The position numbers were made by a program, and so were the translations under genes. Below, in pieces: positions 1 through 57,480 of a DNA stretch of 57,480 nt (within the stretch, counting starts at the first letter, position 1; each line of letters starts with the position of its first letter). Origin of the DNA: a virus. Taxonomy: Duplodnaviria; Caudoviricetes. The stretch is taken from the IMG/VR virus record IMGVR_UViG_3300046534_000186, positions 1-57,480 of that record; one strand, 5' to 3'. Under the pieces are notes generated by a model. That model searched no databases and had not been told where the DNA came from. It was given only the letters and a program-made list of their open reading frames with translations.

Positions 1-177
1 TTGCTATGGATTATAAGGAGAAAGTAGATATACATGGTGAGAAGATACAACAAGCTAAGCTAGCACCCGATGTCACTGTGGATATAGCAGGAGTTGGTAC
101 TCTGAAGTTTGAAAGGTTGAGTTTTAAGACAACTACTCCTAGTCTAGATAACCATGCTAGAACAGGGTTTGTCAACT
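1..177. repeat. Terminal direct overlap, left copy (circular assembly)
   Basis: 1-177 equals 57304-57480 except position 50 (A) versus 57353 (G), a synonymous CAA/CAG; 51-177 (127 nt) is identical to the last 127 nt. Confidence 0.97.
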
Positions 178-551
178 TGATACAAGCAACAGATGCACTC
201 ATAGCTAGGCATATCCTAGTATCACTCGCAAGGCAGGGAGCACAACACGCAATATCAGTTCATGACTGTTTCAGAGTTAATATCAACGACTTCATAGATG
301 GTAAGCTGCATAAAGCAGTAAAGGATGCATACAAGGCTGTGTTTGTGAATATGGATGGTAGAGGTGATATACTCAAGAACTACTTCCAAGGTGTCAAGGA
401 TGCTGGAGGCACGTTCCCTAAGTCATCAATAGCCTATATGTTAGCTGATGGAGCCTTAAAGATGGATGATTGGGTTGAAGTAGAGGATATCATTGACTCT
501 TTAGAGAATAAGATAGATGGTGTGGAAGGTGCTTACTACTTCTCCAAGTAA
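6..551 (+). CDS. C-terminal part of single-subunit RNA polymerase 1 (continues from 55767 across the join)
   Basis: GFVNLIQATDA (cf. T7 PNFVHSQDG) and SVHDCF (T7 motif C IHDSF); ATG at 6 corresponds to the in-frame ATG at 57309. Confidence 0.93.
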   Translation: MDYKEKVDIHGEKIQQAKLAPDVTVDIAGVGTLKFERLSFKTTTPSLDNHARTGFVNLIQATDALIARHILVSLARQGAQHAISVHDCFRVNINDFIDGKLHKAVKDAYKAVFVNMDGRGDILKNYFQGVKDAGGTFPKSSIAYMLADGALKMDDWVEVEDIIDSLENKIDGVEGAYYFSK

Positions 552-759: not shown

Positions 760-867
760 CTACCTAGAAATATAGGCAGAGTCTGATTAAGGTCAAGACC
801 AAGTAGAACTATAGGTAGAGTCTGATTAAGAGCAAGACCAAACAGAATTATAGGTAGAGTATCATCC
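749..867 (+). repeat. Three tandem 39-40 bp imperfect direct repeats
   Basis: Units start at 749, 789 and 828: AAG(GT/AG)CAAGACC-N4-5-AGAAHTATAGGYAGAGT-(CTGATT in the first two). Confidence 0.92.
766..860 (+). promoter_or_regulatory. Three copies of a 17-bp motif AGMAHTATAGGYAGART, putative phage-RNAP promoters (or iterons)
   Basis: Copies at 766-782, 805-821 and 844-860; the TATAGG core resembles the T7-type initiation region; directly downstream of RNAP1. Confidence 0.5.
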
Positions 868-1469: not shown

Positions 1470-1762
1470 TGAGCAAGTCTATGCTAGAAATGTATAAGTT
1501 GTTTAAGAACGATCCCAATTGGAAGCAGCTTAGTTTAAAAGTACACAACCCAAAAGGATTTTACAGTGTTGCAATAGGAGAAACAGTAACAACACTAACG
1601 CAAGTAGACTTAAACTCAGACCAAGTAAGGGAAGTTAGATTAGTTAGTAGTAGTCGTGGAATGAGGCAATCTATTTGCGTGTCCTACAAGCTTGAACAAC
1701 CAGTACAGGATATAGCTCTAAAGTTTGTAGATAGTTCAACTGACCGAACAAATATCTTTTAG
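1469..1762 (+). CDS. Hypothetical early protein (97 aa; start revised from 1328)
   Basis: ATG translationally coupled to the upstream peptide stop; same frame as track ORF 1328..1762. Confidence 0.7.
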   Translation: MSKSMLEMYKLFKNDPNWKQLSLKVHNPKGFYSVAIGETVTTLTQVDLNSDQVREVRLVSSSRGMRQSICVSYKLEQPVQDIALKFVDSSTDRTNIF

Positions 1763-1777
1763 AAATATAGGTAGAGT
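1761..1777 (+). promoter_or_regulatory. Fourth copy of the 17-bp motif
   Basis: AGAAATATAGGTAGAGT, at the start of a 500-nt non-coding leader. Confidence 0.5.
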
Positions 1778-7437: not shown

Positions 7438-7518
7438 CTATTACCGTTCTTACAAAGCTCCAGACCCTAAATGGGACTGGGAAATCTTATTAATAATGGT
7501 TACTTTAATGGTACTTTT

Positions 7519-7535
7519 AGCATTATAGGCAGAAT
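7519..7535 (+). promoter_or_regulatory. Fifth, divergent copy of the 17-bp motif
   Basis: AGCATTATAGGCAGAAT, intergenic, just upstream of the AGGAG RBS of 7550. Confidence 0.4.
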
Positions 7536-9513: not shown

Positions 9514-9542
9514 ACAGGGCTGGTTAACATCAGCCCTGTTTT
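9514..9542 (+). terminator. Rho-independent terminator
   Basis: ACAGGGCTG...CAGCCCTGT followed by TTT. Confidence 0.65.
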
Positions 9543-9544
9543 AG

Positions 9545-9680
9545 TTTACTTAGCCCAACTTTAAAGGAAGGCCAGGTTTGTGAGGTACTAAGACCTATTT
9601 ATAGGGTATGATGTACCTATACTTAAAGTATGTGCTTGCCTTAGCATTGTCTAACCTGCTTTAGGGTTGGACTAAGTAAA
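9545..9680 (+). ncRNA. Candidate multibranch RNA closed by a ~22-bp stem
   Basis: 9545-9566 pairs with 9659-9680 (one mismatch, two G-U); inner CAGGTT/AACCTG plus three small hairpins. Confidence 0.5.
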
Positions 9681-9685
9681 TTGAT

Positions 9686-9724
9686 GAAAGCCCTAACCAA
9701 TTCTGGTTAGGGCTTTCTTGTTTA
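9686..9724 (+). terminator. Rho-independent terminator
   Basis: 14-bp stem GAAAGCCCTAACCA/TGGTTAGGGCTTTC followed by TTGTTT. Confidence 0.75.
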
Positions 9725-14278: not shown

Positions 14279-14297
14279 ATGTCCAACAGGAGGCTAC

Positions 14298-16930: not shown

Positions 16931-16939
16931 GAGAGATTA

Positions 16940-20771: not shown

Positions 20772-20888
20772 GTTTCTATGAAATAGAGTCCGTAAGTCCG
20801 TTAGAAGTAGGTAGGACAGCCTAGTACAAAACAGCCCGCTGGCAACGTACTGCCAACCTATATATATAACCTAACCAAGAGAATAATT

Positions 20889-21656: not shown

Positions 21657-21671
21657 GAACGTAGTAGCTTG

Positions 21672-21703
21672 GCCCTAACCTACAGTTAGGGCTTTCTTGT
21701 TTT
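21672..21703 (+). terminator. Rho-independent terminator
   Basis: GCCCTAAC-CTACA-GTTAGGGC-TTTCTTGTTTT; near copy of the 9686 terminator. Confidence 0.8.
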
Positions 21704-21718
21704 AATTTGGAGAAGTTT

Positions 21719-22624
21719 ATGTCTTTAGAAGACTTGGGGTTAATTGACTACGAGATAGTTGATAAGACCCTACACATAGATGGCGATATAGTCATCTACC
21801 AACCTTGTTGCGTATTTAACGAAGACGATGACCAGTCTCGTAGAATGATTGCTAAGTATGTAAACAAGAAAATCGACGACTTGATGACTGCTGCTGGGTG
21901 CAACTCCTACATTATGTTTGTTACTACTAACTTTAACTTCCGTAACCATTTAGTTGACGACTACAAAGCAAACAGAAGTGATAAAGATAAGCCTGTTAAT
22001 CTGGCATGGGCAAAGCAGTGGGGTGTTAAGAACTTAAACACTCACTATGTAAAGTGGCTAGAGGCTGATGATTTGCTTGGTATTTACCAAACAGAAGAGA
22101 CAGTTCTATGGAGTCTTGACAAAGACCTCAGACAAGTCAAGGGCTACCATTTAGATGATGCTACACAGAAAATTGTTAGTATCTCTGATAATGGGTCTCT
22201 TAAAAAGGAAGTTATATACAAGCCAGATGGAAGAATTAAGAAAACTAAGTATCATTTCACAGGCACAATTGGCCTATACTTCCAAATGCTATCTGGAGAC
22301 TCAACCGACTGGATTGTAGGTTGTGGTAAGAGAAACCCAAGGCCAGAAGGTAAGACTGTAAGAGCAGGAATAGGACAAGGCAAAGCCTACGACATCTTAA
22401 TGAAAGCTGGCAGCATAGAAGCAGGTCTGTTGGCAGTAGCTGACGAATATTGTAAATTACATAAGGGCAACTGGCAGAAAGAGTTAGAAACTCAAGCCAA
22501 CCTACTATTTATGGTTCGAGAAATCGATGGCAATATTATTAAAAGATGGACATTCGACAAGCGTGACGAGTATATGAACATTGTCACAGGAGAAATTACT
22601 GATGGCAATAGTAAGACTACTTAA
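21719..22624 (+). CDS. 5'-3' exonuclease (T7 gp6/FEN-like)
   Basis: IDGD, NFR..YKANR, EADD, DKDLRQ, GDSTD. Confidence 0.9.
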   Translation: MSLEDLGLIDYEIVDKTLHIDGDIVIYQPCCVFNEDDDQSRRMIAKYVNKKIDDLMTAAGCNSYIMFVTTNFNFRNHLVDDYKANRSDKDKPVNLAWAKQWGVKNLNTHYVKWLEADDLLGIYQTEETVLWSLDKDLRQVKGYHLDDATQKIVSISDNGSLKKEVIYKPDGRIKKTKYHFTGTIGLYFQMLSGDSTDWIVGCGKRNPRPEGKTVRAGIGQGKAYDILMKAGSIEAGLLAVADEYCKLHKGNWQKELETQANLLFMVREIDGNIIKRWTFDKRDEYMNIVTGEITDGNSKTT

Positions 22625-22979
22625 AACTGCGGATGACATAAGTACCTATAGGAAAAGCAAGTCAGCACAGCAAAAGTTTAAGTGTCCAATTTGCAATGGC
22701 CCACTACAAACAGGTATAGCGTCAGCTCTAGACCACTCTCACAAGAATGGGAATTGCAGGTCAGTACTTTGTAGGTCTTGTAACGTAGGTGAAGGAAAAG
22801 TTTTAGCAGGGATGTTGTTTAGAACTACCAAGGCTAACTTAGCCTATAGAGATCCCGTAAAATGGCTAAGGAACTTAGCAAACTATATTGAGTATCATGA
22901 GTTAAACCCTAGCGGAGTAATTCACCCGACATTTGATATAAAAACTGGTAAGCAAAAGCCAGTCAAGCGGAGGAAGTAA
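22602..22979 (+). CDS. Endonuclease VII-like resolvase
   Basis: CPIC...LDHSH..G.CR.VLC..CN..EG. Confidence 0.85.
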   Translation: MAIVRLLKTADDISTYRKSKSAQQKFKCPICNGPLQTGIASALDHSHKNGNCRSVLCRSCNVGEGKVLAGMLFRTTKANLAYRDPVKWLRNLANYIEYHELNPSGVIHPTFDIKTGKQKPVKRRK

Positions 22980-23750
22980 ATGAATAGTGACATCATAATA
23001 ATAGCTGATACCCAGGTAGATAGCACATCTCCTACAGATCACTTAAAAGCCTTGTCACACTATATCTGGAAGCACAAACCCAAGCATATTATACACATAG
23101 GAGATCATTGGGATTTCCCTAGCCTTAGTCACTTTGCCTCTAAGTTAGAAAGAGAAAACAGTCGGCTATCTGATGATATGTCTGGAGGTAAGGAAGCTTT
23201 CAAACTAATCATGGAGGAAACAGTTAGACACAACAAGGCTGATAAGAAAAAGGTAATATATGTACCAACCTTAAACTTTACAATGGGGAACCATGAGTAC
23301 AGGTTAAATAGGTACATTGATGAAAATCCTATACTTGAGGGATGCTTTGATATAGAAGGGTTTATAAAATCTGAGGGGTGGGATGTACATCCTTATCTTG
23401 TGCCTTTTTGGATAGAAGGAATATGCTTTATGCACTTCATGCCTAATGCGGCATCTGGTAAGGCAGTAGGAGGAGGTATCGAGAATAAACTTAATAAGTT
23501 TCCTCATAGCTTTGTCCACGGTCATCAACAACAATACCAGTTTGGACGCAGGCAGAACTTAGAAGGAAGGCCACACTTTGGAATATGTGCAGGCTCTTTT
23601 TATATGCATGACGAGGAATACAGAGGGGCTTGCAACACTGAGATACGTGGGTTTGTACACTTAAAGTCTTTTGAAAATAGATATGGGTTTGCTGACCACG
23701 ATGCTGAGTTTGTATCGCTTGAGCGTTTACTAATAGATTACGGGAAGTAA
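22980..23750 (+). CDS. Calcineurin-like metallophosphoesterase
   Basis: DTQ, GDHWD, GNHE, H, GHQQ motifs. Confidence 0.85.
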   Translation: MNSDIIIIADTQVDSTSPTDHLKALSHYIWKHKPKHIIHIGDHWDFPSLSHFASKLERENSRLSDDMSGGKEAFKLIMEETVRHNKADKKKVIYVPTLNFTMGNHEYRLNRYIDENPILEGCFDIEGFIKSEGWDVHPYLVPFWIEGICFMHFMPNAASGKAVGGGIENKLNKFPHSFVHGHQQQYQFGRRQNLEGRPHFGICAGSFYMHDEEYRGACNTEIRGFVHLKSFENRYGFADHDAEFVSLERLLIDYGK

Positions 23751-23752
23751 GA

Positions 23753-23953
23753 ATGATCTTAACAGAACAACAAGTTCTGTCCGATGCGGCAGAGTTGATA
23801 ACCGATTTGGTTACTTCTCTGGACGCGGAGGGTCTGAGCTACGAAGAAAAATCAGAAGCATTGGAAGACGCTAGACGTATATTTGAAAGGACAGAGCGAG
23901 TTCTAAGAATAATGCTTGAACCAGCATCAATAGAAGGTAAACCAATTCATTAG
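23753..23953 (+). CDS. Hypothetical protein
   Basis: 66 aa, tightly packed. Confidence 0.65.
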   Translation: MILTEQQVLSDAAELITDLVTSLDAEGLSYEEKSEALEDARRIFERTERVLRIMLEPASIEGKPIH

Positions 23954-23962
23954 GAGAAACTA

Positions 23963-24154
23963 ATGTACGCGCTATATAAGGTGAGATCAGATTGGCACAA
24001 GTTCTACGAAGTGTTGTTTGTATCAGAATACACTCATAGGCTTATTGTCAGATCAAGGTTATACAAAGAGAATTTGTTAACTGAAGATGAACTTGAAGAT
24101 TTGGATAACGACTGTGAAGATTTTCTAGTTATATTAAAGGTAGAGTTATTATGA
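23963..24154 (+). CDS. Hypothetical protein
   Basis: AGGAG RBS. Confidence 0.65.
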   Translation: MYALYKVRSDWHKFYEVLFVSEYTHRLIVRSRLYKENLLTEDELEDLDNDCEDFLVILKVELL

Positions 24155-25113
24155 ACATATTTCAATTTTTAGGATTACCCAAGGATTATCGTAAGGAAAA
24201 TAAAGTCACACAGCTAGTCAAGCACTGGGACGAGGTAATAGATAAACACAAAGAAGGAAAAAAGTTTGTTACACAAATTAAACGTGATGGAGTATGCTCA
24301 TTAACAGTAGTTAAAGGCTCTAAGATTGCTATATTCTCTAGGACAGGTAAGCAATTTACTAACACAAGTGACTTGATAGAGAAAGTAGATGAACTACGAC
24401 TTCCAGATGGTGTGTATATGGGTGAAATATGGCTACCTAAGGAAGTGTGTTCACTTGAAAAGCTATCTGGTATGGTTAATCCTAACAGGGTAAACTTTCT
24501 TGATATAGATGGAGTGCTACTAACTTCACGACTAAAGTTAAGCTTCTTTGATCTACTTAGCATTGAGTCTTTTATAAGAGGCTCTAACTACTATAAGTTT
24601 AAGGCTCGGCACAGTTCTTTGTCCTATTCAGTAAGACTTAACCCTTCAATAGATGTTCTAGGTGCTACGATAGCAGAAAATGAAGAAGTAATAAATTCTT
24701 ACTTTAAATCTGCTACTGATGTCGGGGAAGAAGGTATAGTAATTAGAGATCCTGACGCAAGTTGGGAAGCTGGTCACAAGGGCTGGAGAGTCATGAAGAT
24801 GGTTCGTGGAATTGATTACGATCTCAAGTGCATTGGTTGGGAAGAAGGTACTGGAAAGTATGCTGGTAAGGTGGCTAACCTGATCTTTGAATGGAAAGAT
24901 GGTAAGACTGTAAAGGCTATGCTTGGTAAAGGATGGACTCATAATATGGCTGAGCAAATGTTCCGTGATATCATAGTTGGATCTACTGAGGATGAGAGCT
25001 ATCCTCTGGGTAATATCTTCCAAGTGTATGCGCTAGAAGAGAGCAGCAAAGGTAAGCTTCGCCTCCCTAAAGTAGGTGAGCGAAGGTTTGATAAAGGAGA
25101 GCCAGATGTTTAA
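24151..25113 (+). CDS. ATP-dependent DNA ligase
   Basis: Motif I KRDG, SRTGK, GE, FD, EGIVIR, C-terminal LRLP...RFDK. Confidence 0.9.
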   Translation: MNIFQFLGLPKDYRKENKVTQLVKHWDEVIDKHKEGKKFVTQIKRDGVCSLTVVKGSKIAIFSRTGKQFTNTSDLIEKVDELRLPDGVYMGEIWLPKEVCSLEKLSGMVNPNRVNFLDIDGVLLTSRLKLSFFDLLSIESFIRGSNYYKFKARHSSLSYSVRLNPSIDVLGATIAENEEVINSYFKSATDVGEEGIVIRDPDASWEAGHKGWRVMKMVRGIDYDLKCIGWEEGTGKYAGKVANLIFEWKDGKTVKAMLGKGWTHNMAEQMFRDIIVGSTEDESYPLGNIFQVYALEESSKGKLRLPKVGERRFDKGEPDV

Positions 25114-25369
25114 AGTAGAAGAAGCATTAGCAAAGTTGACTAATCGCTTTTACGATGTTGACATGTCAATAACCTTTGACATAGAGTCTAGCAGCATAGT
25201 TACTCTTTTTAGGGGAAAAGACAAAGCAACTGGGTTAAGTATGATATCTAGAAGACTTACACACACTACTGACGCTTATAAGCTAAGCATGGATATGGAG
25301 AAAGCAGCAAGAGATATGCTGGATATAGAGTCCCCAATAAAAGTAGACAAGGGCTTAGTGTATGTTTAA
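25106..25369 (+). CDS. Hypothetical protein (start revised from 25076)
   Basis: AGGAG RBS before ATG 25106. Confidence 0.65.
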   Translation: MFKVEEALAKLTNRFYDVDMSITFDIESSSIVTLFRGKDKATGLSMISRRLTHTTDAYKLSMDMEKAARDMLDIESPIKVDKGLVYV

Positions 25370-25556
25370 TAACATGATAAGGGCATTTGCAATCAATGCT
25401 AGGATAAAGGGTATGGAGACATGCAACCAAGAAAGGGTGTTAAATGGAAGCTCTATTGCTTACGAAAGTGAACATTTCTTTCAAGCGGAAGACGAACTTG
25501 TAGGATTGGCAGAGGCGGAAGAGAACAAAGATAATAGACTTAGACCTTATTACTAA
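25362..25556 (+). CDS. Hypothetical protein
   Basis: 64 aa, overlapping the upstream stop. Confidence 0.65.
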   Translation: MFNNMIRAFAINARIKGMETCNQERVLNGSSIAYESEHFFQAEDELVGLAEAEENKDNRLRPYY

Positions 25557-25575
25557 ACTAAACTAAGGAGGCAGT

Positions 25576-27417
25576 ATGATTCAACTTGATGGCGGCGTTA
25601 TATTGCCTGATGGAAAAGGTAAAGGGTTTGCCAAACCTGATGGGATTAGTCCTAACAAGTGGCAAACCATGAAACCTGAGATGTGGGAGAGGGCGTACTT
25701 ACATTGCCTGTATTCTCTACCAATACATTTCGACCTACCACTACACTCAGTAGTACCTCGGCTAGCCAAGAAAATGCTAGAAGCATCAGACCCTTTCAAT
25801 GTAGCCTTAAGGTTTATGGGAGAGATGGAGATAGCTGGCTATGTAGAGTTTGAGAGAGGTATGGATGAGAGAATAGTCCAACCAACTAAAAAGTTTCTAA
25901 GTCTGGATCTAGATTGTGAAAGAGCGCCTACCTCGGCCATAACCTTTCCTAAGATGATCGGGGAAGGAATACCTAGGTCGCCAATTAGAGGTGGGGTAAG
26001 GAGTGCTAAGAATGATGAGGTTGCTGACATAACTTCAGAGATTGCTAGCCAAGAGTTTGAAGTAAACCAGCACATGCTCGACCTAACAACTGAGTTCCCT
26101 CCTCAGTTTGATAAAACTTCTTCAGCTTATATGTATAAGAGAGCTATGAAGTCTTCTAAAACCTTAGGAAGCAGGAGGTTTAGATTTCCTTATTTCCTAG
26201 ATAGTAGATCAAGGACTTACACTGATACTACTTGCGGAATAACTCCTCAGGGAGCTGACCATGAGAAGGCTTTGGTAATACCTACCTACGCTGAGAAGCT
26301 TACACCTTCAGGATTGATAGCACTAATAGAAGCTGCTAATGGCTACTCCGAACTAGACTTTACTCAAGAAGACATGTGTAGGCATATCAATGATCCCAAA
26401 GGCTACCACCATGAATGGTCTAAGTCTGATAAGCCATACTCGTACCTTGCATGTGCAGCCCTCGTATACAGACACTCAAAAGATCCTAATGAGCCATTGC
26501 CAGCATTCAAACCTTTAGATGGTCGATGCTCAGGGCTACAACATTGGTCTGCTGTAGTTCGCTCAAACGCGATTACACGCCATCTGGGGATGCATATAGA
26601 TGAGGCTGACTTGGACATCTATGAGAAGGTTGCGGCTGACTGGAGAGAAACGCTTGAACCTGAGTGGCAGTATTTGGCTACTAGAAAAGCGGCCAAGATT
26701 CCTGTTATGACATGGGGATATAATGCTACTATGATGACTTCGATGGAGCATATAGGAAAACTATATGGGGCAAAGTCTAAATGGGATGATAATATCCAAG
26801 CGTATGTCACTGATGGTAAGGGACTAGAGAGGGGTGTCACGAGCAAGTTCGGGGCTCAGATATACAGACAGTTGCAAGATACTTTAGGCCCACTGCAAGG
26901 CGCTGTGAGCTGGGTGAGTGATTGTGCAGTACTAATATCTAAGATAGGTAATGTAGAAATACGATGGCCTACTCCTGATGGTTTTACCTGTATGCAACGT
27001 AAGGTCAAAGGAGAGACTAAAGATCTTGCTTGCACTCTATCAGATGACAGCAGGTTTCAATTAGACATACTAGACTTCTCCAAAGATACTCCCAACACTG
27101 GTAAGCACAGGTCAGCAATAGCACCTAACATAATCCATTCGCTAGACGCTACACATCTAAGGATGGTGGCTAGAAGGTTGAAGGAGTTAGGTTTGCCTAT
27201 GATATTTATACATGACTCATTCGCTACACATTGTAATCATGAACAAGCATTGTATGATATTATTGTTGATACCTTTATAGAACTGTACAGCATGGATTAC
27301 TTGCAAGACCTTAAGAAGTATTGGGAAGAACTATATGGGGTCGAGTTGGATGATCCTCCAGAGCTGGGCGAATGGAAGCCCGAATCTATAAGAGGTCTTA
27401 AGCGATTCTTTCTATGA
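25576..27417 (+). CDS. Single-subunit RNA polymerase 2 (T7 superfamily, 613 aa)
   Basis: FPYFLDSRSRTY..PQG, motif A DGRCSGLQH, motif B RKAAKIPVMTWGY, APNIIHSLDA, motif C IHDSF; AGGAGG RBS. Confidence 0.95.
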   Translation: MIQLDGGVILPDGKGKGFAKPDGISPNKWQTMKPEMWERAYLHCLYSLPIHFDLPLHSVVPRLAKKMLEASDPFNVALRFMGEMEIAGYVEFERGMDERIVQPTKKFLSLDLDCERAPTSAITFPKMIGEGIPRSPIRGGVRSAKNDEVADITSEIASQEFEVNQHMLDLTTEFPPQFDKTSSAYMYKRAMKSSKTLGSRRFRFPYFLDSRSRTYTDTTCGITPQGADHEKALVIPTYAEKLTPSGLIALIEAANGYSELDFTQEDMCRHINDPKGYHHEWSKSDKPYSYLACAALVYRHSKDPNEPLPAFKPLDGRCSGLQHWSAVVRSNAITRHLGMHIDEADLDIYEKVAADWRETLEPEWQYLATRKAAKIPVMTWGYNATMMTSMEHIGKLYGAKSKWDDNIQAYVTDGKGLERGVTSKFGAQIYRQLQDTLGPLQGAVSWVSDCAVLISKIGNVEIRWPTPDGFTCMQRKVKGETKDLACTLSDDSRFQLDILDFSKDTPNTGKHRSAIAPNIIHSLDATHLRMVARRLKELGLPMIFIHDSFATHCNHEQALYDIIVDTFIELYSMDYLQDLKKYWEELYGVELDDPPELGEWKPESIRGLKRFFL

Positions 27418-27440
27418 TATAAAAATACCCGCTAATGGTA

Positions 27441-27499
27441 AGGCTCTTTCTACTCCCGTTACTACCCCGCCTGATTAGGGAGAGGGAGTGGTAGAGCCT
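27441..27499 (+). promoter_or_regulatory. Long imperfect hairpin at the middle/late boundary
   Basis: AGGCTCT/AGAGCCT outer stem and TACTCCC/GGGAGTG inner stem. Confidence 0.4.
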
Positions 27500-27520
27500 A
27501 TTTATAACTAGGAGAACCTA

Positions 27521-27982
27521 ATGAATGATGTATTAGAAATATCAAATGAATTCGAGCTTATAGCTCATGCTATGGTTCAAACTCGTGGTGATCTTTCTAA
27601 GGCATCTAGGTTTGACAGTGTAGATTATAATGCTATGAGCTTAAGGGCTGTAGTAAAGAACAACCCTGAGATACGTGGACGTTATCATGAGTTACTTGCC
27701 GAAGAGATGCAAGAGAAAGGTCTACATATAGCAGAAAGAATACTAAATATGGCTACTCTACAAGAGCAAGCTATGGGTGGTAAGATTATGGTTACTAATG
27801 AAGCTGGTGAACAGGAAGAGATGGACATACCAGCAGATATTAAAACAGTAATAGAGTTATCAAAAGAGATATCTAGGCTCATAGCAGAGGGTAGAGGACA
27901 GCCGATGTCTGCCAAATCCACTATAGTATTAGCAAGCAAGGAAGACGCAAAAGATTTACTGGAGTCTTTCTTAAACTCATGA
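27521..27982 (+). CDS. Putative terminase small subunit
   Basis: Helical 153 aa protein overlapping the terL start. Confidence 0.55.
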   Translation: MNDVLEISNEFELIAHAMVQTRGDLSKASRFDSVDYNAMSLRAVVKNNPEIRGRYHELLAEEMQEKGLHIAERILNMATLQEQAMGGKIMVTNEAGEQEEMDIPADIKTVIELSKEISRLIAEGRGQPMSAKSTIVLASKEDAKDLLESFLNS

Positions 27983-29571
27983 GTAACATCAGTAAGATGA
28001 GTGACTATGAAGTTAATGCACTTAGAGATTACCTAAGTGGAGACTTTGAAGCTTTTAGTAAGTTCTGTTTTAAAATAATGACAGGACAGAAACTAATACA
28101 CGTAGATTACTACGTTGTACTTTTTGAAGCTATCCAGCAATTGATAGATCAAGAAACTACAAGAATGATTATTAACATACCACCCAGAGCTGGCAAGACA
28201 CTTTTAATAAGTATCTTCTTGCCGCTCTTTGCTTGGGTGAGAAACCCCTCAGGACAAACCATCCTGACTGGTTTTAACTCAGACGTACTAGCGGAATGCT
28301 CAGGTTACATAAGAACAATAATGAGTGATGATGATTTCCGCAAAGTCTTTCCAGATGTTGTAATTGATAACAATAAGAAATCTGTTGAGAGACTTGGTAC
28401 AATGAGTGCAGGAGTGCTTCACGCTATACCTACTACTGGTAAAATGACTGGTAAAGGGTGTGGAGCACTTGTGGAAGGGTTTGCGGGTATTATGGCTATT
28501 GATGATGTTATTAAGCCTGATGATGCTAACTCTCCAACTGAAAGGGATAAGATCAATAACCGTTTTAGTAACACACTGTTATCTAGGTTAGCTACAGAAA
28601 CTACGCCACTGGCTATTATAATGCAAAGATTGCATAACAATGACCTATGCGGATTTCTTATGAGGGGTGGAAGCTCTGATACTTATAAATGGCTTAACAT
28701 ACCTGGCATAGTCACTAAGGAGACAGGTAGTAAAGAATGGTATGACAAACAGGTAAAGGACTATGGGTACACTAATGTAGAACCTATGTTGTACTCACTA
28801 CCTGAGTCAGAGACTAGGGAGTATGTAGAGCGAGAGTTTGAAGGTAAGATGCAGAGTGTATCAAGCTTTTGGAGCATTCGTAAAACAGTAGACACTTTAC
28901 TAGGATTGTGTGAGAAAGATTCATACACCTTCTATTCTCAATACATGGGAAGACCTGTTGGCAAAGGCAAATCTCCAATGAGTTCTGAGTATATAAGAAC
29001 CTATGAAGATATAGATGAATTCCGTATTCGCTACACTTTCATGACTGCTGACACAGCATCAACAAAACAATCATACTCTGACCCGACTGTAGCTTGTCTA
29101 TGGGGCATGACTAGGTGTAGTAAGTTAGTACTAATGGATGTAGTTATAGATAAGTGGGAGACTCCTGAGTTAGTAATAGCAATGCGTAAGTTCTGGGTTG
29201 ACCATAATGTGTTTAATCCAAACAGACCAACATGGAAGCCAAGAGGCTTCTACATGGAAGATAAGTCAAGTGGCTTATTTTTAAACCAACAGTTCTTAAA
29301 AGATGGTACTGTCAGAGTTAAGCCTGTGCCTAGAGATGGTACTCCTAATAATGACAAGTTCTCTCGGTTCTTAAACTCAGTTCCTTACTTTAAAGCAGGA
29401 AGAATTGTGCTACCTAAGAATCATGAACATACACCTTACATGACTAGAGAACTTCTAGGCCAATCAGAATTAGGGTCATCCACTGGACATGACGATGTAG
29501 CTGACAATGTAGCTGATGCGGTAGTAGTAGCATTTTCTCACGGCTCTATGCCCTATGAAGACTGGTCTTAA
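27979..29571 (+). CDS. terL: Terminase large subunit
   Basis: IINIPPRAGKT Walker A, IDD, IIMQRLHxxD, nuclease DTA...D, EDKSSG, HDDVAD. Confidence 0.95.
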   Translation: MSNISKMSDYEVNALRDYLSGDFEAFSKFCFKIMTGQKLIHVDYYVVLFEAIQQLIDQETTRMIINIPPRAGKTLLISIFLPLFAWVRNPSGQTILTGFNSDVLAECSGYIRTIMSDDDFRKVFPDVVIDNNKKSVERLGTMSAGVLHAIPTTGKMTGKGCGALVEGFAGIMAIDDVIKPDDANSPTERDKINNRFSNTLLSRLATETTPLAIIMQRLHNNDLCGFLMRGGSSDTYKWLNIPGIVTKETGSKEWYDKQVKDYGYTNVEPMLYSLPESETREYVEREFEGKMQSVSSFWSIRKTVDTLLGLCEKDSYTFYSQYMGRPVGKGKSPMSSEYIRTYEDIDEFRIRYTFMTADTASTKQSYSDPTVACLWGMTRCSKLVLMDVVIDKWETPELVIAMRKFWVDHNVFNPNRPTWKPRGFYMEDKSSGLFLNQQFLKDGTVRVKPVPRDGTPNNDKFSRFLNSVPYFKAGRIVLPKNHEHTPYMTRELLGQSELGSSTGHDDVADNVADAVVVAFSHGSMPYEDWS

Positions 29572-29586
29572 TTCGGGAGATATATA

Positions 29587-29766
29587 ATGAGTTTGAAAAC
29601 TCGGTTAGATGGTCGGTCAGAAGGTAATGATCGATTTGAAATAATAGATGAAGAGGGTAATGTTCTAGCTGAAATTAAGTTACTTAACCCTTTTGGTGTA
29701 ACACTAGACATATCTACTGGGGATGGATTATGCATCAAAAAGCCTAGTGGATGGAGTTCTAAGTAG
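29587..29766 (+). CDS. Small hypothetical protein (59 aa), not in track
   Basis: GGGAG RBS; MSLKTRLDGRSEGNDRFEII...GWSSK*; stop overlaps the next GTG. Confidence 0.7.
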   Translation: MSLKTRLDGRSEGNDRFEIIDEEGNVLAEIKLLNPFGVTLDISTGDGLCIKKPSGWSSK

Positions 29767-30311
29767 TGGCACAAGAAGTTTTTAACTTAGGTACTTTAGA
29801 TGCTGTAACAAATACTATTATTCCAGGGTCAGGAGATAACGCTCCTACACTTGGAGCAAAGCTTAATGCAAACTTTGATGAGTTGTATGGAATATCTTTT
29901 TCAGTAGCCTTATCAATAGGCTCTTTAGATTTAGAGTCAGGTACTAATTCAAGTAGTATAGCTAACTTAAATAGTTCAGTATCTTCTTTGGAAGTGGCTG
30001 TAAGTACTAACGCTACTAACTTAGGTAGCTTAACCACTTTAGTAGAACTACTAGAGGTAAGCTCTAGCACTAACGCTACTAACTTAGGTAGTTTAACTAC
30101 TTTAGTAGGATCATTAGGAATAGACTCTAGCACTAACACTACTAACTTAAGTAATTTAACTACTTCAGTAGGTGCTATAGGCGAAGAAGTTAGTGAAAAC
30201 TCTACTAGTATATTAAGTCTTGCCTCCTCAGTAAGTATTATAAATACAGCCGCACGACTAATTCAAACCCAAGCAACTATGGGTAAGATAATAAAAAGAG
30301 GATATACATAA
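29766..30311 (+). CDS. Putative virion fibre/whisker protein
   Basis: N-terminal GT..GD...KLNANFDELY attachment-type motif followed by 21-aa coiled-coil repeats (STNATNLGSLTTLV). Confidence 0.6.
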   Translation: MAQEVFNLGTLDAVTNTIIPGSGDNAPTLGAKLNANFDELYGISFSVALSIGSLDLESGTNSSSIANLNSSVSSLEVAVSTNATNLGSLTTLVELLEVSSSTNATNLGSLTTLVGSLGIDSSTNTTNLSNLTTSVGAIGEEVSENSTSILSLASSVSIINTAARLIQTQATMGKIIKRGYT

Positions 30312-55766: not shown

Positions 55767-57480
55767 ATGACCGAAGCAAACAGAGAAGCATTCACAATCG
55801 AATCCAATCGCAGATCAGAATTCGTGAGCAAACTAACAAGCACACTTTACAAGAACGGACAAAGCACTATGGATAGCCTTGTCATAGCCACAGCGATGCT
55901 AGGGAGTATCGACAAGCTTGGCTTAGTAAGCATTGACAAGTGGGTTAAGAACGTGAATAAGTTCATACACAGGACAGGAGAGCAAGGGACTAGTATCATA
56001 GCATCCTCAGTGGATGGTACAACAACCCATAGAGACTTCGTGATACCCACATGGTTCGATACTGTGGTACATGCTGAGTTGATCACTAGGGATGGTGAGG
56101 TAGGTGAGAAGCTAATGAAGATGATTCAGAAGCCTGATAAGGCATATCCAGCACTAGCTGTGGATGGTGTGACTAGAAAGCATCCAATGATACCTAGCAA
56201 CTCAACGTACAAGTTAGGTAGTAGAGCATCAAACTTAGCAAAAGCTGGATTAGAGGTGCAGGAAGATACACCTTACACATCGAACAACTTCATGGTATCT
56301 TTAGCAGAAGGTGTTGGTAAGCATATAGAGTTAGATGATAGATATGTCATTGATGGCTCTAGGTTAATGATTAGCGAAGGCAACTTACCTAGAGTTAGTG
56401 AGCACAAGGCAGATCACAGGATCAGGACATATCAAAGTGATTGTCATGGTCCACAGTTTGCAGCTTCAGACATGAGTAGGTCATTCATGGACTTGTATGG
56501 GGTAAGCACAGACTATAGTGCAAAGAAAGTGGTAGCTGTCCTACGAGATGAGATGCTAGACATGATAACTGGCAAGACCATGAAAGATCTTGACCATGCT
56601 ATACAGATGCTTAGGAACTCAGGTGGCTTAGTTATGTTTATAGTTGAGCAACTAACCTTGAAGGGTCACGACAATGCAGACACATTGCCTGAAGAGTGTG
56701 TTGATGACTACATAGTAAGTAAAGTATGGAGCTTTGTCAAGGCTAACAGGTATCTGATGGCTATAGAGGCTGGTAAGAAGCCTTACATAGGTATGGCCTT
56801 TGGTGTAGATGCCAAGTGCTCAGGCCCACAGTTAGGCTCTATCATGACTGGAGACATTAAGTTAGCTGAAGCGTGTGGATTTGGTAGCAAGAGAGCTGAA
56901 CGTGATGCTTATGAGCTAGCAATTGAGATATGTGAGAAACGTGGAATATCTGGACTATCTAGGAAGGTTATTAAAACAGCATACATGGGTATATTCTACG
57001 GTCAAGCTTACATGACCTTCTGTGATATTAGCAGTTACGGAGCAAAGCCTGGACAACATAACCCTAGGCTCTTGAAGGTGCTAAAAGGTATCAAGGTAGA
57101 TGGAGTGAGTGATGCGCAAAAGCTTGAGGAACAAGCTAAGATCTTCCACGCAGCTATCGAATCCTCATTCGGTAACATGTCTGCTCTAAGGAAAGAGATT
57201 AAGCTGGCTCATTACCACTACGAGCAATCTGACAGTGGTATGCCGATCAAGGTATTTGATACTACAAAGCCTACTATGTACAGTATGCCTGATGGATCAT
57301 TCGTTGCTATGGATTATAAGGAGAAAGTAGATATACATGGTGAGAAGATACAGCAAGCTAAGCTAGCACCCGATGTCACTGTGGATATAGCAGGAGTTGG
57401 TACTCTGAAGTTTGAAAGGTTGAGTTTTAAGACAACTACTCCTAGTCTAGATAACCATGCTAGAACAGGGTTTGTCAACT
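55767..57480 (+). CDS. Single-subunit RNA polymerase 1, N-terminal and central part (695 aa when joined to 6..551)
   Basis: GAGG RBS; frame read by hand with no stop; DHRIRTY, motif A DAKCSGPQ (56808), motif B RKVIKTAYMGIFYG (56961); alternative in-frame ATG at 55695. Confidence 0.93.
   Translation, partial: MTEANREAFTIESNRRSEFVSKLTSTLYKNGQSTMDSLVIATAMLGSIDKLGLVSIDKWVKNVNKFIHRTGEQGTSIIASSVDGTTTHRDFVIPTWFDTVVHAELITRDGEVGEKLMKMIQKPDKAYPALAVDGVTRKHPMIPSNSTYKLGSRASNLAKAGLEVQEDTPYTSNNFMVSLAEGVGKHIELDDRYVIDGSRLMISEGNLPRVSEHKADHRIRTYQSDCHGPQFAASDMSRSFMDLYGVSTDYSAKKVVAVLRDEMLDMITGKTMKDLDHAIQMLRNSGGLVMFIVEQLTLKGHDNADTLPEECVDDYIVSKVWSFVKANRYLMAIEAGKKPYIGMAFGVDAKCSGPQLGSIMTGDIKLAEACGFGSKRAERDAYELAIEICEKRGISGLSRKVIKTAYMGIFYGQAYMTFCDISSYGAKPGQHNPRLLKVLKGIKVDGVSDAQKLEEQAKIFHAAIESSFGNMSALRKEIKLAHYHYEQSDSGMPIKVFDTTKPTMYSMPDGSFVAMDYKEKVDIHGEKIQQAKLAPDVTVDIAGVGTLKFERLSFKTTTPSLDNHARTGFVN
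57304..57480. repeat. Terminal direct overlap, right copy
   Basis: Matches 1-177 with one mismatch. Confidence 0.97.

What the first reader, a model, noticed from the sequence alone, without database searches (positions are those of the whole stretch)
25576..27417. Two independent, compact T7-superfamily RNA polymerases in one myovirus: a likely two-step cascade
Seen: RNAP1 (55767 through the join to 551, 695 aa) and RNAP2 (613 aa) each carry motifs A, B and C with both catalytic Asp, so they are not halves of a split enzyme. They differ strongly in sequence (DAKCSGPQ/HDCF versus DGRCSGLQH/HDSF), and both have a variant DxxGR motif (DHRIR, DSRSR). RNAP1 is at the start of the early region (T7-like position). 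RNAP2 sits between the replication and packaging genes (phiKMV-like position). Known: T7 RNAP is 883 aa; Autographiviridae and Chaseviridae are described with one such RNAP; N4 uses a giant virion RNAP plus a heterodimer. Inference: host RNAP, then RNAP1 (early/middle), then RNAP2 (late), with orthogonal promoters. The short N-termini suggest a different mode of promoter recognition or accessory factors. This is the best candidate for an undescribed system here.
Basis: partly seen in the sequence, partly recalled or inferred. Interest (0 to 1): 0.88.

Follow-up and report, generated by a model that had tools for sequence, protein, structure and literature searches.

The report
Myovirus with two different phage RNA polymerases
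An uncultivated contractile-tailed phage related to the Chaseviridae carries two complete but very different T7-type RNA polymerases, a layout shared by its relatives, which probably transcribe different sets of phage genes in turn, though this has not been tested.

Summary
RNAP2 (25576-27417, 613 aa) matches PF00940 (E 2e-46). RNAP1 (55767 across the assembly join to 551, 695 aa) is a diverged enzyme with no Pfam hit. Both fold with high confidence (pLDDT 91.8 and 93.7) onto T7 and mitochondrial RNA polymerases (Z 39 and 25). All catalytic residues are invariant in 72 and 68 homologues.

They are not duplicates. RNAP1 is the orthologue of the single Chaseviridae polymerase, with N4 RNAPII next nearest. 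RNAP2 belongs to a compact subfamily on the T7/phiKMV side.

The window is a complete 57.3-kb genome colinear with Chaseviridae (TerL about 46% identical). Eight further records at least 96% complete, in two deep branches, have both enzymes in the same positions. The four cultured Chaseviridae in which PF00940 matched have one polymerase gene each.

The relay (RNAP1 early/middle, RNAP2 late) is plausible but inferred. Support is position, an early-region TATAGG motif, and a conserved structured element between RNAP2 and the late genes.

Alteromonas phage H4/4 is annotated with two such polymerases, and a 2025 paper reports marine Autographiviridae with two. My four literature searches listed no paper on a two-polymerase Chaseviridae-like myovirus. 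Other first readers of this scan flagged the same layout on other DNA (e1-6282759, e1-6337712). Verdict: new variant of a known kind; interest 0.62.

The parts
25576..27417 (+). RNAP2: compact (613 aa) T7/phiKMV-side single-subunit RNA polymerase. It is the last gene of the replication (middle) block.
   Evidence: ORF. PF00940 E 2.1e-46, 159 bits against a cut-off of 22. phrog_414 E 1.3e-71. AF2 pLDDT 91.8. T7 elongation complex 8dh5_M Z 39.4, rmsd 3.3, 467 aligned; 1cez_A Z 31.7 with model 4-613 on T7 73-883. Catalytic residues invariant in 72 of 72 homologues.
55767..57480 (+). RNAP1, N-terminal and central part (motifs DxRxR, A, B). An alternative upstream ATG at 55695 gives 719 aa. The gene runs across the assembly join.
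   Evidence: ORF open to the window end. Frame continuous across the join. Full-length P0001 on record elsewhere. phrog_2051 E 3e-10 and phrog_414 E 2e-8. No Pfam hit at E 0.1. Family profile A1.
1..551 (+). RNAP1, C-terminal part (specificity-loop region, motif C HDCF, C-terminal YYFSK). Bases 1-177 repeat 57304-57480.
   Evidence: phrog_414 E 2.2e-7. A1 profile E 4e-74 on this ORF. AF2 of the whole 695 aa gives pLDDT 93.7. Yeast mtRNAP 8ap1_A Z 25.3 and T7 8dh5_M Z 25.1, model 125-693 on T7 267-882.
765..858 (+). Three tandem copies (765, 804, 843) of the motif TAGAAnTATAGGyAGAGT, directly downstream of RNAP1 and preceded by AAGGTC hexamer repeats. Candidate phage-RNAP promoters.
   Evidence: With 2 mismatches allowed the pattern has 6 matches against 0.85 expected, and 0 of 100 shuffles reach 6. 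The layout resembles T7 promoters phi1.1A/B just after gene 1.
1760..1775 (+). Fourth copy of the TATAGG motif, at the end of ORF 1328-1762 and the start of a 516-b ORF-free stretch.
7518..7533 (+). Fifth copy of the TATAGG motif (1 mismatch), a few bases upstream of the AAGGAG ribosome-binding site of gene 7550.
27425..27505 (+). Conserved structured element between the RNAP2 stop and the first late gene. It has three conserved boxes (GCTAATGGTAAG, CGTTACTACCCCG, AGGGAGAG) set in a covarying two-helix hairpin. Candidate late promoter, terminator or RNA-processing site.
   Evidence: Present in 12 of the 15 relatives' stretches examined (10 distinct sequences); with the window 11 distinct, and one more added gives the 12 rows of A3. 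RNAalifold: 8 of 11 pairs show two-sided changes. The same architecture is the MFE fold in 11 of 11 sequences folded singly. No Rfam family. Single copy in the window.
9514..9717 (+). Two strong terminator-like hairpins (9514-9539 and 9686-9717) at the end of the early region.
21671..21693 (+). Terminator-like hairpin within the replication block. It shares the arm GCCCTAACC and the tail TTTCTTGTTT with the hairpin at 9686-9717.
24151..25113 (+). ATP-dependent DNA ligase, the last recognisable replication gene upstream of RNAP2.
   Evidence: PF01068 E 4.8e-16 and PF14743. phrog_114 E 3.5e-64.
27979..29571 (+). Large terminase subunit, which marks the start of the packaging and virion (late) block.
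   Evidence: 44% identity to 4HA13 TerL. Best cultured matches are Chaseviridae at 45-47%.

Best explanation
The window is the complete genome of an uncultivated phage that is a deep relative of the Chaseviridae. It has a contractile tail and all genes on one strand. It encodes two active, non-redundant single-subunit RNA polymerases of different lineages.

RNAP1 is the fast-evolving orthologue of the Chaseviridae polymerase, with N4 RNAPII next nearest. It sits at the left end. It most likely transcribes the early region from the short TATAGG-type promoters clustered just behind its own gene, and probably also the replication block. Who makes the first RNAP1 mRNA is open; host RNAP is the likeliest.

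RNAP2 is a compact enzyme on the T7/phiKMV side. It is encoded as the last gene of the replication block. It most likely transcribes the 27.6-kb late block (27521-55148), starting at or near the conserved element that directly follows its gene.

What is shown: both genes are intact, the folds are T7-like, the catalytic residues are conserved, the two lineages differ, and the pair keeps fixed positions in relatives. What is inferred: enzymatic activity, the temporal order, the promoter assignments and orthogonality.
For: 1. Both are real polymerases. RNAP2 matches PF00940 at 159 bits. The AF2 models have pLDDT 93.7 and 91.8. The top Foldseek and VIA matches are T7 and mitochondrial RNAPs, at E 3e-16 and Z 25 for RNAP1 and E 2e-24 and Z 39 for RNAP2. 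Motif A, B and C residues are invariant in 68 of 68 and 72 of 72 homologues.

2. The lineages differ.
- The RNAP1-family profile matches Chaseviridae RNAPs end to end (E 6.5e-68 to 1.2e-45). It then matches N4 gp16 (5.6e-12), and RNAP2 only at 2e-8.
- The RNAP2-family profile matches H4/4 gp29 (4.5e-59), T7 gp1 (1.2e-44) and phiKMV gp26 (8e-38), and RNAP1 only at 7e-6.
- The only PDB sequence hit of the RNAP1 profile is N4 RNAPII, 6dt7_B, E 8e-8.
- A quick tree splits {RNAP2 family, T7, phiKMV, H4/4 gp3 and gp29} from {RNAP1 family, Chaseviridae, N4 gp16}, with SH-aLRT 97 on each side.

3. The pair is conserved.
- Of 19 IMG/VR records with an RNAP1 homologue, 7 have RNAP2, including 5 of 5 records at least 96% complete.
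- The other 12 are fragments, and 0 of those 12 has TerL either, so none is a counterexample.
- The gene order is the same in all 6 complete genomes.
- A second, more distant branch has both enzymes in the same positions: G024-G026, with RNAP2 37-39% identical and TerL 59-61% identical to 4HA13.

4. The layout fits a relay. RNAP2 follows the ligase with no gap of more than 20 b and has a strong ribosome-binding site, so it reads as a middle gene. phiKMV places its RNAP in the same position.

5. Cis elements.
- The TATAGG motif has 5 strong copies. All are on the + strand, all lie outside or at the ends of ORFs, and all are within 765-7533.
- The core [CA]TAGG[TC]AG recurs on the + strand in ORF-free sequence near RNAP1 in 5 of 6 genomes of the clade.
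- T7 has its own promoters directly after gene 1.
- The element after RNAP2 pairs a conserved 13-mer with AGGGAGAG, which resembles the TAGGGAGA start region of T7 promoters (recalled from memory). It occurs once per genome, before the late block.

6. Sigma-70-like sites are not enriched anywhere scanned: 4 against 8.2 expected, 23 against 31.5, and 48 against 48.3.
Against: - There are no transcript data: no RNA run holds this sequence.
- No motif class was found for the replication block (9738-25556), so RNAP1's proposed middle role has no cis evidence.
- On the opposite strand, the first TATAGG copy reads as TTGACC-16-TATATT, a 10-of-12 sigma-70-like site. The motif could therefore be a leftward host promoter or part of an origin.
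- Three of its five copies belong to one tandem array and are not independent.
- The motif core is conserved across genomes whose RNAP1s are only 34-39% identical. That fits a host factor or the better-conserved RNAP2 as well as it fits RNAP1.
- The element after RNAP2 has variable spacing between its boxes (6-9 nt) and compensatory base changes. This is typical of an RNA or single-strand structure, not of a rigid duplex T7-type promoter. It is absent from 3 of the 15 relatives' stretches examined (G006, G022, L038).
- In G006 a motif from the early region also stands after RNAP2. That argues against strictly separate promoter classes there.
- Cultured Chaseviridae manage with one RNAP, so RNAP2 is not needed for this genome design.
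Confidence: 0.5

Rival explanations
1. Division of labour without a simple relay. RNAP2 is the general phage transcriptase for middle and late genes. RNAP1 serves only the small early region and, like T7 RNAP at the primary origin, fires the tandem promoters behind its own gene to prime or activate DNA replication.
For: The three tandem motif copies sit in a repeat-rich, ORF-free 776-b stretch with AAGGTC hexamer iterons directly after RNAP1. Similar AAGGTCAAG or GATCAAGACC repeats follow RNAP1 in L131, G006 and G022. In T7, promoters phi1.1A/B stand directly after gene 1; that they mark the primary origin is recalled from memory. The motif is confined to 765-7533.
Against: The genome has its own Toprim primase (13065-13889). 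RNAP2 is encoded at the end of the middle block, so it cannot start that block's transcription. Cultured Chaseviridae have only the RNAP1 type and still express all their genes.
Confidence: 0.15
2. N4-style start. RNAP1 is made late (its gene follows the tail-fibre genes on the circular map and may lie in a terminal repeat), is packaged, and is injected to transcribe the early genes. The programme would then be independent of host RNAP.
For: RNAP1 follows the last virion genes (54768-55148) after a 366-b gap and one small ORF. In 4HA13 the RNAP gene lies inside the 3120-b terminal repeat, so a copy also ends the genome. No convincing + strand sigma-70-like site lies in 55149-55700. The nearest non-Chaseviridae relative of RNAP1 is an N4 polymerase. 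Other notes of this scan propose compact virion RNAPs in marine phages (unchecked).
Against: The N4 relative is RNAPII, the non-virion enzyme, not the virion RNAP. In the 4HA13 record, whose paper reports 15 proteins by LC-MS/MS, the RNAP is not annotated as a virion structural protein; I saw only that passage, not the protein list. The host's promoter consensus is unknown, so the lack of sigma-70 sites weighs little.
Confidence: 0.1
3. Back-up or counter-defence. The two enzymes overlap in function. The second is kept because hosts or competing elements inhibit one of them, or because it widens the range of hosts or conditions.
For: RNAP1 evolves about twice as fast as the other core proteins (34-39% identity against 52-62% for RNAP2 and 64-79% for TerL). 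Its similarity pattern does not track TerL, as expected for a gene under conflict or exchanged between phages. In G006 one motif occurs both early and after RNAP2.
Against: The two enzymes are barely alignable outside the catalytic core, and their specificity-loop regions differ in length and sequence. Both are retained in all 9 complete genomes at fixed, different positions.
Confidence: 0.1
4. One of the two is an inactive relic or has a non-polymerase role.
For: RNAP1 has no Pfam hit. Both lack the Gly of DxxGR. RNAP2 has Y-N where T7 has Y639-G640 (T7 numbering recalled from memory).
Against: Every catalytic residue is invariant across 68 and 72 homologues down to about 35-40% identity. The Gly is variable throughout both families, and the Y-N/S variant is family-wide. 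Both are full-length, confidently folded models with Z 25-39 to active polymerases.
Confidence: 0.03

Closest known systems
Chaseviridae (phiEcoM-GJ1, ST32, 4HA13, PM1, Faunus, pAh6-C): myoviruses with one T7-like RNAP
   Same: The genome is colinear, with all genes on one strand. Identities to 4HA13 are TerL 44%, portal 51%, major capsid protein 44% and DNA polymerase 37%. The RNAP1 family profile matches their RNAPs end to end (E about 1e-67), and their RNAP has the same left-end position. Their promoters are also unknown (ICTV profile PMC12842549, abstract and Replication passage seen).
   Different: PF00940 matched one gene each in 4 of the 5 cultured members searched; PM1's two places are terminal-repeat copies, and VPs20 gave no match. 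The ICTV profile describes one RNAP. Here a second, unrelated RNAP sits between the ligase and the terminase. In that slot VPs20 has a 631-aa 'recombinase' with no RNAP similarity. The window genome is 57.3 kb, against 52-56 kb for the family.
Alteromonas phage vB_AspP-H4/4 (Autographiviridae, Foturvirus), and marine Autographiviridae groups AG-10.1 and AG-14 with two RNAP genes (Commun Biol 2025, PMC12361551)
   Same: There are two T7-type RNAP genes in one genome. H4/4 has gp3 (708 aa) at the left end and gp29 (796 aa) between ligase/endonuclease VII and the virion genes. AG-14's extra RNAP of about 650 aa lies between the DNA-metabolism and structure modules, and the authors suggest different RNAPs for different genes (passages seen). 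Among the references tested, H4/4 gp29 is the best match of the RNAP2 profile (E 4.5e-59).
   Different: Those are podoviruses, and both of H4/4's enzymes fall on the T7 side of the tree. Here the virion is a myovirus type and the left-end enzyme is the Chaseviridae/N4 RNAPII type. RNAP2's first 190 or so residues align only with the compact 570-660-aa subfamily, not with the roughly 800-aa enzymes. I could not test whether AG-14's extra RNAP belongs to the RNAP2 subfamily, because supplements are closed.
Coliphage N4 relay (virion RNAP gp50, then heterodimeric RNAPII gp15+gp16, then host RNAP)
   Same: There is more than one T7-superfamily polymerase in one phage, used in succession (abstract of PMC4496689 seen in a search listing). 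N4 gp16 is the closest solved relative of RNAP1 by sequence profile. The sizes are similar: gp15+gp16 is 269+404 aa against 695 aa.
   Different: RNAP1 is a single chain. No giant virion RNAP is present (no third RNAP-like ORF). The second enzyme here is T7/phiKMV-like, not host RNAP. That N4 RNAPII depends on gp2 and single-stranded templates is recalled from memory and was not tested here.
phiKMV-like and T7-like Autographiviridae (single RNAP)
   Same: RNAP2's position at the end of the DNA-metabolism block is that of phiKMV gp26. Promoters directly behind the RNAP gene are as in T7. RNAP2 superposes on T7 RNAP at Z 39.
   Different: RNAP2 has 613 aa against 816-883 aa. It is paired with a second enzyme and sits in a myovirus.

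Membership tests
T7-like single-subunit RNA polymerase (Pfam RNA_pol, PF00940) | Score above the Pfam gathering cut-off | tested here: met
   This verdict is for RNAP2: 159.1 bits against a cut-off of 22, E 2.1e-46. RNAP1 has no hit at E 0.1 in either piece. Its orthologues in cultured Chaseviridae do pass the cut-off (35.7-55.9 bits), and its family profile matches them at about 1e-67.
T7-like single-subunit RNA polymerase (Pfam RNA_pol, PF00940) | Right-hand Pol I-type fold shared with T7 and mitochondrial RNAP over the whole polymerase domain | tested here: met
   RNAP2: 8dh5_M Z 39.4, rmsd 3.3, 467 aligned; 1cez_A Z 31.7, 582 aligned, model 4-613 on T7 73-883. RNAP1: 8ap1_A Z 25.3, rmsd 3.2, 446 aligned; 8dh5_M Z 25.1, 471 aligned, model 125-693 on T7 267-882. 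These are predicted models, with pLDDT 91.8 and 93.7.
T7-like single-subunit RNA polymerase (Pfam RNA_pol, PF00940) | Catalytic Asp of motif A and motif C, and motif B Arg-x3-Lys-x7-Tyr | tested here: met
   RNAP1: D348, D601 and R399/K403/Y411 are invariant in 68 of 68. RNAP2: D315, D547 and R370/K374/Y382 are invariant in 72 of 72. Equivalence to T7 D537/D812/R627/K631/Y639 is by recalled numbering.
T7-like single-subunit RNA polymerase (Pfam RNA_pol, PF00940) | T/DxxGR motif | tested here: inconclusive
   Asp and both Arg are kept (DHRIR, DSRSR), but the Gly is replaced. The Gly is present in only 38 of 68 and 33 of 72 family members, and the Asp is Cys in 11 of 72 RNAP2 relatives. The strict motif is not a family-wide feature here.
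T7-like single-subunit RNA polymerase (Pfam RNA_pol, PF00940) | Promoter-recognition elements (intercalating beta-hairpin, specificity loop) and promoter-specific initiation | tested here: inconclusive
   Both models have an N-terminal beta-hairpin (RNAP1 E76-81/E84-89; RNAP2 E90-94/E99-103). Both also have a long beta-hairpin between motifs B and C (RNAP1 E536-559; RNAP2 E480-500). No residue-level superposition on the T7 elements was obtained. Activity cannot be tested with these tools.
Chaseviridae (ICTV family) | Myovirus-type virion genes, all genes on one strand, gene order shared with phiEcoM-GJ1/4HA13 | tested here: met
   22 ORFs have tblastn matches to 4HA13 in the same order, including the ORFs that 4HA13 annotates as tail sheath, baseplate proteins, portal, major head protein and TerL.
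Chaseviridae (ICTV family) | One large single-subunit RNAP; genome of 52-56 kb | tested here: not met
   The window has two RNAPs and a unit length of 57,303 b. The ICTV profile gives one RNAP and 52-56 kb.
Chaseviridae (ICTV family) | Clusters with the family in core-gene phylogeny, at sequence similarity typical of the family | tested here: inconclusive
   The best cultured TerL matches are all Chaseviridae, but at 45-47% identity. The RNAP1 family is sister to Chaseviridae RNAPs in a quick tree (SH-aLRT 98). No concatenated core-gene tree was made.
N4-like (Schitoviridae) polymerase relay | Giant virion-packaged RNAP, plus a heterodimeric RNAPII | tested here: not met
   No third RNAP-like ORF was found among 199 ORFs. 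RNAP1 is one chain of 695 aa. Only sequence kinship to gp16 is shared.

The most novel reading that the evidence does not exclude
The clade runs an almost host-independent two-polymerase programme. The second switch would be unlike T7: RNAP2 would start late transcription at a single promoter embedded in a conserved, covarying two-helix hairpin (27425-27505). That would make it a structured, single-strand or extruded-hairpin promoter in the manner of N4, but read by a compact T7/phiKMV-type enzyme. RNAP1, a single-chain relative of N4 RNAPII, would read the short TATAGG promoters. This would give two small, mutually orthogonal polymerase-promoter pairs, and the first promoter assignment for the Chaseviridae-type enzyme.
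Probability: 0.12. Interest if true: 0.85.

Novelty: new variant of a known kind. Interest (0 to 1): 0.62.

Why it matters
- Chaseviridae are defined by one T7-like polymerase whose promoters are still unknown. Two deep uncultivated branches of their relatives keep a second, unrelated polymerase in a fixed slot. This suggests the two-enzyme design is old in this group and was lost in the cultured lineages, or gained more than once.
- The finding gives concrete, testable cis-element candidates for each enzyme.
- A similar architecture (left-end RNAP plus an RNAP before the virion genes) appears in Foturvirus podoviruses with a non-orthologous left-end enzyme. That points to a recurrent solution for timing phage transcription.
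- On the practical side, enzymes of 613 and 695 aa with probably different promoters are candidates for compact orthogonal expression systems.

Tried and rejected
- Megablast of RNAP2 DNA against 50,697 phage records found no match.
- The search for related loci with RNAP1 as a single protein found nothing in viral contigs. The alignment A1 was needed.
- The exact 14-mer of the element after RNAP2 gave 63 loci in viral contigs. Only 7 were contigs of this clade that I already held; the rest look like chance hits and were not used.
- The search for related loci with P0263 alone found nothing. The alignment A4 worked.
- No RNA holder is listed for the window stretch 24000-30000. Only two DNA runs hold half or more of the sampled words, and one of them may be the source.
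- Sigma-70 and terminator consensus scans gave no enrichment of promoter-like sites. I draw no conclusion on host promoters, because the host is unknown.
- De novo motif clustering found no shared motif for the replication block or within the late block. In relatives it found genome-specific repeats rather than one shared promoter.
- The 8-mer core is absent from 4HA13, so the motif could not be tied to the RNAP1 type through a one-polymerase phage.
- Rfam has no family for the element at 27425-27505.
- VPs20's 631-aa 'recombinase' and pAh6-C's genes in the RNAP2 slot have no similarity to either polymerase family.
- The careful tree search did not finish in 288 s. The quick tree (SH-aLRT only, midpoint root) is what I cite. 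N4 gp16, H4/4 gp3, H4/4 gp29, phiKMV gp26 and the pAh6-C RNAP have long branches, so their exact places are unsure.
- Matching 'longest contig' lengths between the RNAP1 and RNAP2 hit lists (55515, 54973, 57749, 55710, 57849, 41562) suggest further co-occurrence. I treat this as a hint only.
- Supplements are closed. The supplementary data of PMC12361551 may list genomes or sequences of the extra RNAPs that bear on whether RNAP2's subfamily is the same. I could not see them.
- Papers. I saw passages only of PMC12842549, PMC12361551, PMC9699118, PMC4331800 and 10.1101/2025.10.29.685362. In PMC8228385 I found no mention of polymerase. Of PMC4496689 I saw only the abstract in a search listing.
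- The claim that a two-polymerase Chaseviridae-like myovirus is not in print rests on searches only.

Full report
**What the window is.** The 57,480-base window is a whole IMG/VR virus record, with CheckV completeness 100. Its last 177 bases repeat its first 177 with one mismatch, giving a unit length of 57,303 b. All sizeable ORFs are on the + strand. GC content is an even 38-43% with no anomaly at either polymerase gene. ARAGORN finds no tRNA. Twenty-two ORFs match Escherichia phage vB_EcoM_4HA13 (Chaseviridae) in the same order, with TerL 44%, portal 51%, major capsid protein 44% and DNA polymerase 37% identical. The best cultured TerL matches are all Chaseviridae, at 45-47% identity. The phage is therefore a deep, uncultivated relative of that family.

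**The observation.** RNAP2 is the ORF 25576-27417 (613 aa). RNAP1 runs from 55695 or 55767 across the join to 551, giving 719 or 695 aa in one frame. The 695-aa protein is also on record from an independent short contig.

- RNAP2 matches PF00940 at 159 bits and phrog_414 at E 1.3e-71. It aligns with mitochondrial and T7 RNAPs at E 1e-20 to 2e-23.
- RNAP1 has no Pfam hit and only weak PHROG hits. By tblastn it finds 12 phage records, all Chaseviridae, 10 of them annotated RNA polymerase at the match, at about 22-28% identity.
- A 68-sequence alignment of RNAP1's relatives shows the Asp and both Arg of DxRxR, the motif A Asp, motif B R-x3-K-x7-YG and motif C HD invariant.
- A 72-sequence alignment shows the same for RNAP2, apart from the Asp of its DxRxR (Cys in 11 of 72), with Y-N/S in place of Y-G.
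- The Gly of DxxGR is variable throughout both families.
- AlphaFold2 models are confident (pLDDT 93.7 and 91.8). Their best structural matches are T7 and mitochondrial RNAPs: RNAP2 at Z 39.4 (467 aligned, rmsd 3.3), RNAP1 at Z 25.3 (446 aligned, rmsd 3.2).
- No third polymerase-like ORF exists.

**The two enzymes are of different kinds.**

- The RNAP1-family profile matches the RNAPs of 4HA13, Faunus and PM1 end to end (E about 1e-67) and pAh6-C (1e-45). It then matches N4 gp16 (6e-12), and RNAP2 only at 2e-8.
- The RNAP2-family profile matches H4/4 gp29 (4.5e-59), T7 gp1 (1e-44), phiKMV gp26 (8e-38) and H4/4 gp3 (7e-31), Chaseviridae RNAPs at 1e-14 to 1e-18, and RNAP1 at 7e-6.
- The only solved structure that the RNAP1 profile finds by sequence is N4 RNAPII (6dt7_B, E 8e-8).
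- A quick maximum-likelihood tree separates {RNAP2 family, T7, phiKMV, H4/4 gp3 and gp29} from {RNAP1 family, Chaseviridae, N4 gp16}, and places the RNAP1 family as sister to the Chaseviridae RNAPs (SH-aLRT 97, 97 and 98). The careful search did not finish.
- Against 1.84 billion representatives, RNAP2's full length aligns only with a compact subfamily of about 570-660 aa. About 15 clusters reach E 1e-58 or better. The scores then drop sharply to roughly 800-aa enzymes that align only from residue 185-200 onward.
- Structurally, however, 582 residues spanning RNAP2 residues 4-613 superpose on T7 residues 73-883. Its N-terminal domain is condensed rather than missing.
- RNAP1's good superpositions cover residues 124-694 on T7 265-883. 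Those that include its N-terminus are loose (rmsd 6.7-7.2).

**Conservation of the pair.**

- RNAP2 relatives at 60-75% identity occur on 11 IMG/VR loci.
- Of 19 records with an RNAP1 homologue, 7 also have RNAP2, including 5 of 5 that are at least 96% complete. The remaining 12 are fragments that also lack TerL (0 of 12), so no record that reaches the ligase-terminase junction lacks RNAP2.
- The six complete genomes share the order RNAP1, DNA polymerase, RNAP2, TerL, portal, capsid.
- RNAP2's pairwise identities (49-62%) track those of TerL (58-79%). RNAP1 is the least conserved core protein (34-48%), and its pattern does not track TerL.
- A wider search with distant compact RNAP2 relatives brought in a second branch: G024, G025 and G026, each 99-100% complete, plus a fragment. 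Its TerL is 59-61% identical to 4HA13's and only 45-46% to the window's. It still has an RNAP2 homologue (37-40% identity) between the DNA polymerase and TerL, and an RNAP1/Chaseviridae-type gene (E about 1e-65).
- Six complete 38-49-kb genomes with only 23-26% matches lack the RNAP1 type.
- In contrast, PF00940 finds one gene each in 4HA13, pAh6-C, Faunus and PM1 (PM1's two places are repeat copies) and none in VPs20. The ICTV profile describes one RNAP.
- The pair therefore stands in 9 complete genomes of two deep branches. It is probably ancestral and lost in the cultured lineages, but gain against loss was not tested.

**Cis elements, early region.**

- The motif TAGAAnTATAGGyAGAGT occurs at 765, 804, 843, 1760 and 7518 (0-1 mismatch), always on the + strand and outside or at the ends of ORFs. 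With 2 mismatches allowed there are 6 matches against 0.85 expected, and 0 of 100 shuffles reach 6.
- Three copies form a 39-b tandem array directly behind RNAP1, preceded by AAGGTC hexamers. One copy lies just upstream of the ribosome-binding site of gene 7550.
- The ending TATAGGyAGA resembles the start region of T7 promoters (recalled), and T7 has promoters phi1.1A/B right after gene 1.
- The core [CA]TAGG[TC]AG recurs in ORF-free sequence near RNAP1 in 5 of 6 genomes of the clade. In G022 it has a similar upstream GATCAAGACCAA.
- Cautions: on the other strand the first copy reads as a 10-of-12 sigma-70-like site. The core is conserved although the RNAP1s are only 34-39% identical. It is absent from the one-polymerase phage 4HA13, which has its own early-region motif.

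**Cis elements, after RNAP2.** Directly after the RNAP2 stop lies a conserved element of about 80 nt (27425-27505).

- It has boxes GCTAATGGTAAG, CGTTACTACCCCG and AGGGAGAG within a long outer helix, whose sequence differs between genomes but stays complementary, and a 3-4-bp inner helix with compensatory changes (CCCC/GGG, CCTC/GAGG, CTTC/GAAG, CCCT/AGGG).
- It is present in 12 of the 15 relatives' stretches examined (10 distinct sequences); G006, G022 and L038 lack it. The alignment A3 holds 12 distinct sequences including the window's.
- RNAalifold finds two-sided changes at 8 of 11 pairs. The same architecture is the minimum-energy fold in 11 of 11 sequences folded singly.
- It is a single copy in the window and matches no Rfam family.
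- Its position, at the junction of the middle and late blocks, and its TAGGGAGA make it a candidate late promoter. The variable box spacing and the covariation point instead to an RNA or single-strand structure: a terminator for middle transcripts, an RNase III-type processing site like T7's R1.1 after gene 1 (recalled), or a structured promoter.

**Other signals.** Terminator-like hairpins close the early region (9514-9539, 9686-9717) and stand at 21671-21693. Sigma-70-like sites are nowhere enriched.

**Mechanism.** I judge a relay the most likely reading (about 0.5). RNAP1, as in its one-polymerase relatives, takes over after entry. It serves the early region, and probably the replication block, which ends with RNAP2. 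RNAP2 then transcribes the late block. What supports this is position, the analogy with T7, phiKMV and N4, the fixed conservation of both genes, and the two classes of cis elements. What is missing is any transcript or enzyme evidence, and a promoter class for the middle block. The rivals are an origin-priming or early-only role for RNAP1, an injected RNAP1, functional back-up under host or competitor pressure, and an inactive copy. They are set out with their evidence in the Rival explanations section.

**What is known.**

- The premise that Autographiviridae have one RNAP is outdated. The RefSeq record of Alteromonas phage H4/4 annotates gp3 (708 aa, left end) and gp29 (796 aa, between ligase/endonuclease VII and the virion genes) as RNA polymerases.
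- A 2025 paper reports 23 AG-10.1 and 17 AG-14 marine Autographiviridae with an additional RNAP of about 650 aa. In AG-14 it lies between the DNA-metabolism and structure modules. The authors suggest different RNAPs for different genes (PMC12361551, passages).
- N4 uses three polymerases in turn (abstract in the listing).
- Four full-text searches listed no paper describing a Chaseviridae-like myovirus with two such enzymes, or this pairing of a Chaseviridae/N4 RNAPII-type with a compact T7-type enzyme.
- Within this scan, first readers flagged the same layout on other DNA. One note (e1-6282759) has coordinates matching my G020, and another (e1-6337712) shares only 5 of 110 short words with RNAP2. 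Neither had been followed up.

**Verdict.** The finding is a new variant of a known kind (multi-polymerase phages), conserved across a sizeable uncultivated clade, with concrete testable elements. Interest is 0.62.

Noticed in passing
window 27425-27505: Conserved structured element of about 80 nt right after the RNAP2 stop. It has three invariant boxes in a covarying two-helix hairpin, matches no Rfam family, and occurs once per genome. It is present in 12 of the 15 relatives' stretches examined.
   Followed up: partly
window 713-860: Run of AAGGTC-type hexamers leading into three 39-b repeats behind RNAP1. Related AAGGTCAAG or GATCAAGACC repeats follow RNAP1 in L131, G006 and G022. This could be an origin or a promoter cluster.
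   Followed up: partly
window 9686-9717 and 21671-21693: Two terminator-like hairpins share the arm GCCCTAACC and the tail TTTCTTGTTT. G016 has four hairpins of one shared type, each ending in GGGCTTT(T)(C). These look like phage-specific repeated terminators.
   Followed up: no
window 2754-2864: Rfam tRNA model hit of 30.8 bits (gathering score 29) spread over 111 nt, while ARAGORN calls no tRNA. This is an odd tRNA-like element in the early region.
   Followed up: no
L001 (4HA13) 123, 2385, 2706, 6091, 10322, 10503, 12636: The one-polymerase Chaseviridae phage 4HA13 has seven copies of CATTAGTTGGAAT-like sequence outside ORFs, all within its first 12.7 kb and flanking its RNAP gene. This is a candidate promoter class for a family whose promoters are said to be unknown. 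A second motif, ATATTGTGACAGT, occurs 5 times in 2999-3581.
   Followed up: no
G006 (rotated coordinates 3021-8169, 28908, 28918, 57129): In relative G006 the motif GTACTATCTAGTAC occurs in the early region, upstream of RNAP1, and twice just after RNAP2. There it takes the place of the structured element found in most relatives.
   Followed up: no
RNAP1 genes of G000, G006, G009, G016, G020, G022: RNAP1 is the fastest-evolving core protein (34-48% identity), and its similarity pattern disagrees with TerL and RNAP2. This suggests exchange of the left-end module or strong diversifying pressure.
   Followed up: partly
L041 (Vibrio phage VPs20) 307-2202: In the slot where RNAP2 lies here (between the dNMP kinase and the terminase), VPs20 has a 631-aa gene annotated as recombinase, with no similarity to either RNAP family. 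PF00940 finds no RNAP at all in this Chaseviridae record.
   Followed up: partly
window 57304-57480 versus 1-177: The terminal overlap has one mismatch at offset 49, which is why the record is classed as linear. It splits the RNAP1 gene, so the gene is called as a 181-aa fragment (P0131) in the source annotation.
   Followed up: yes
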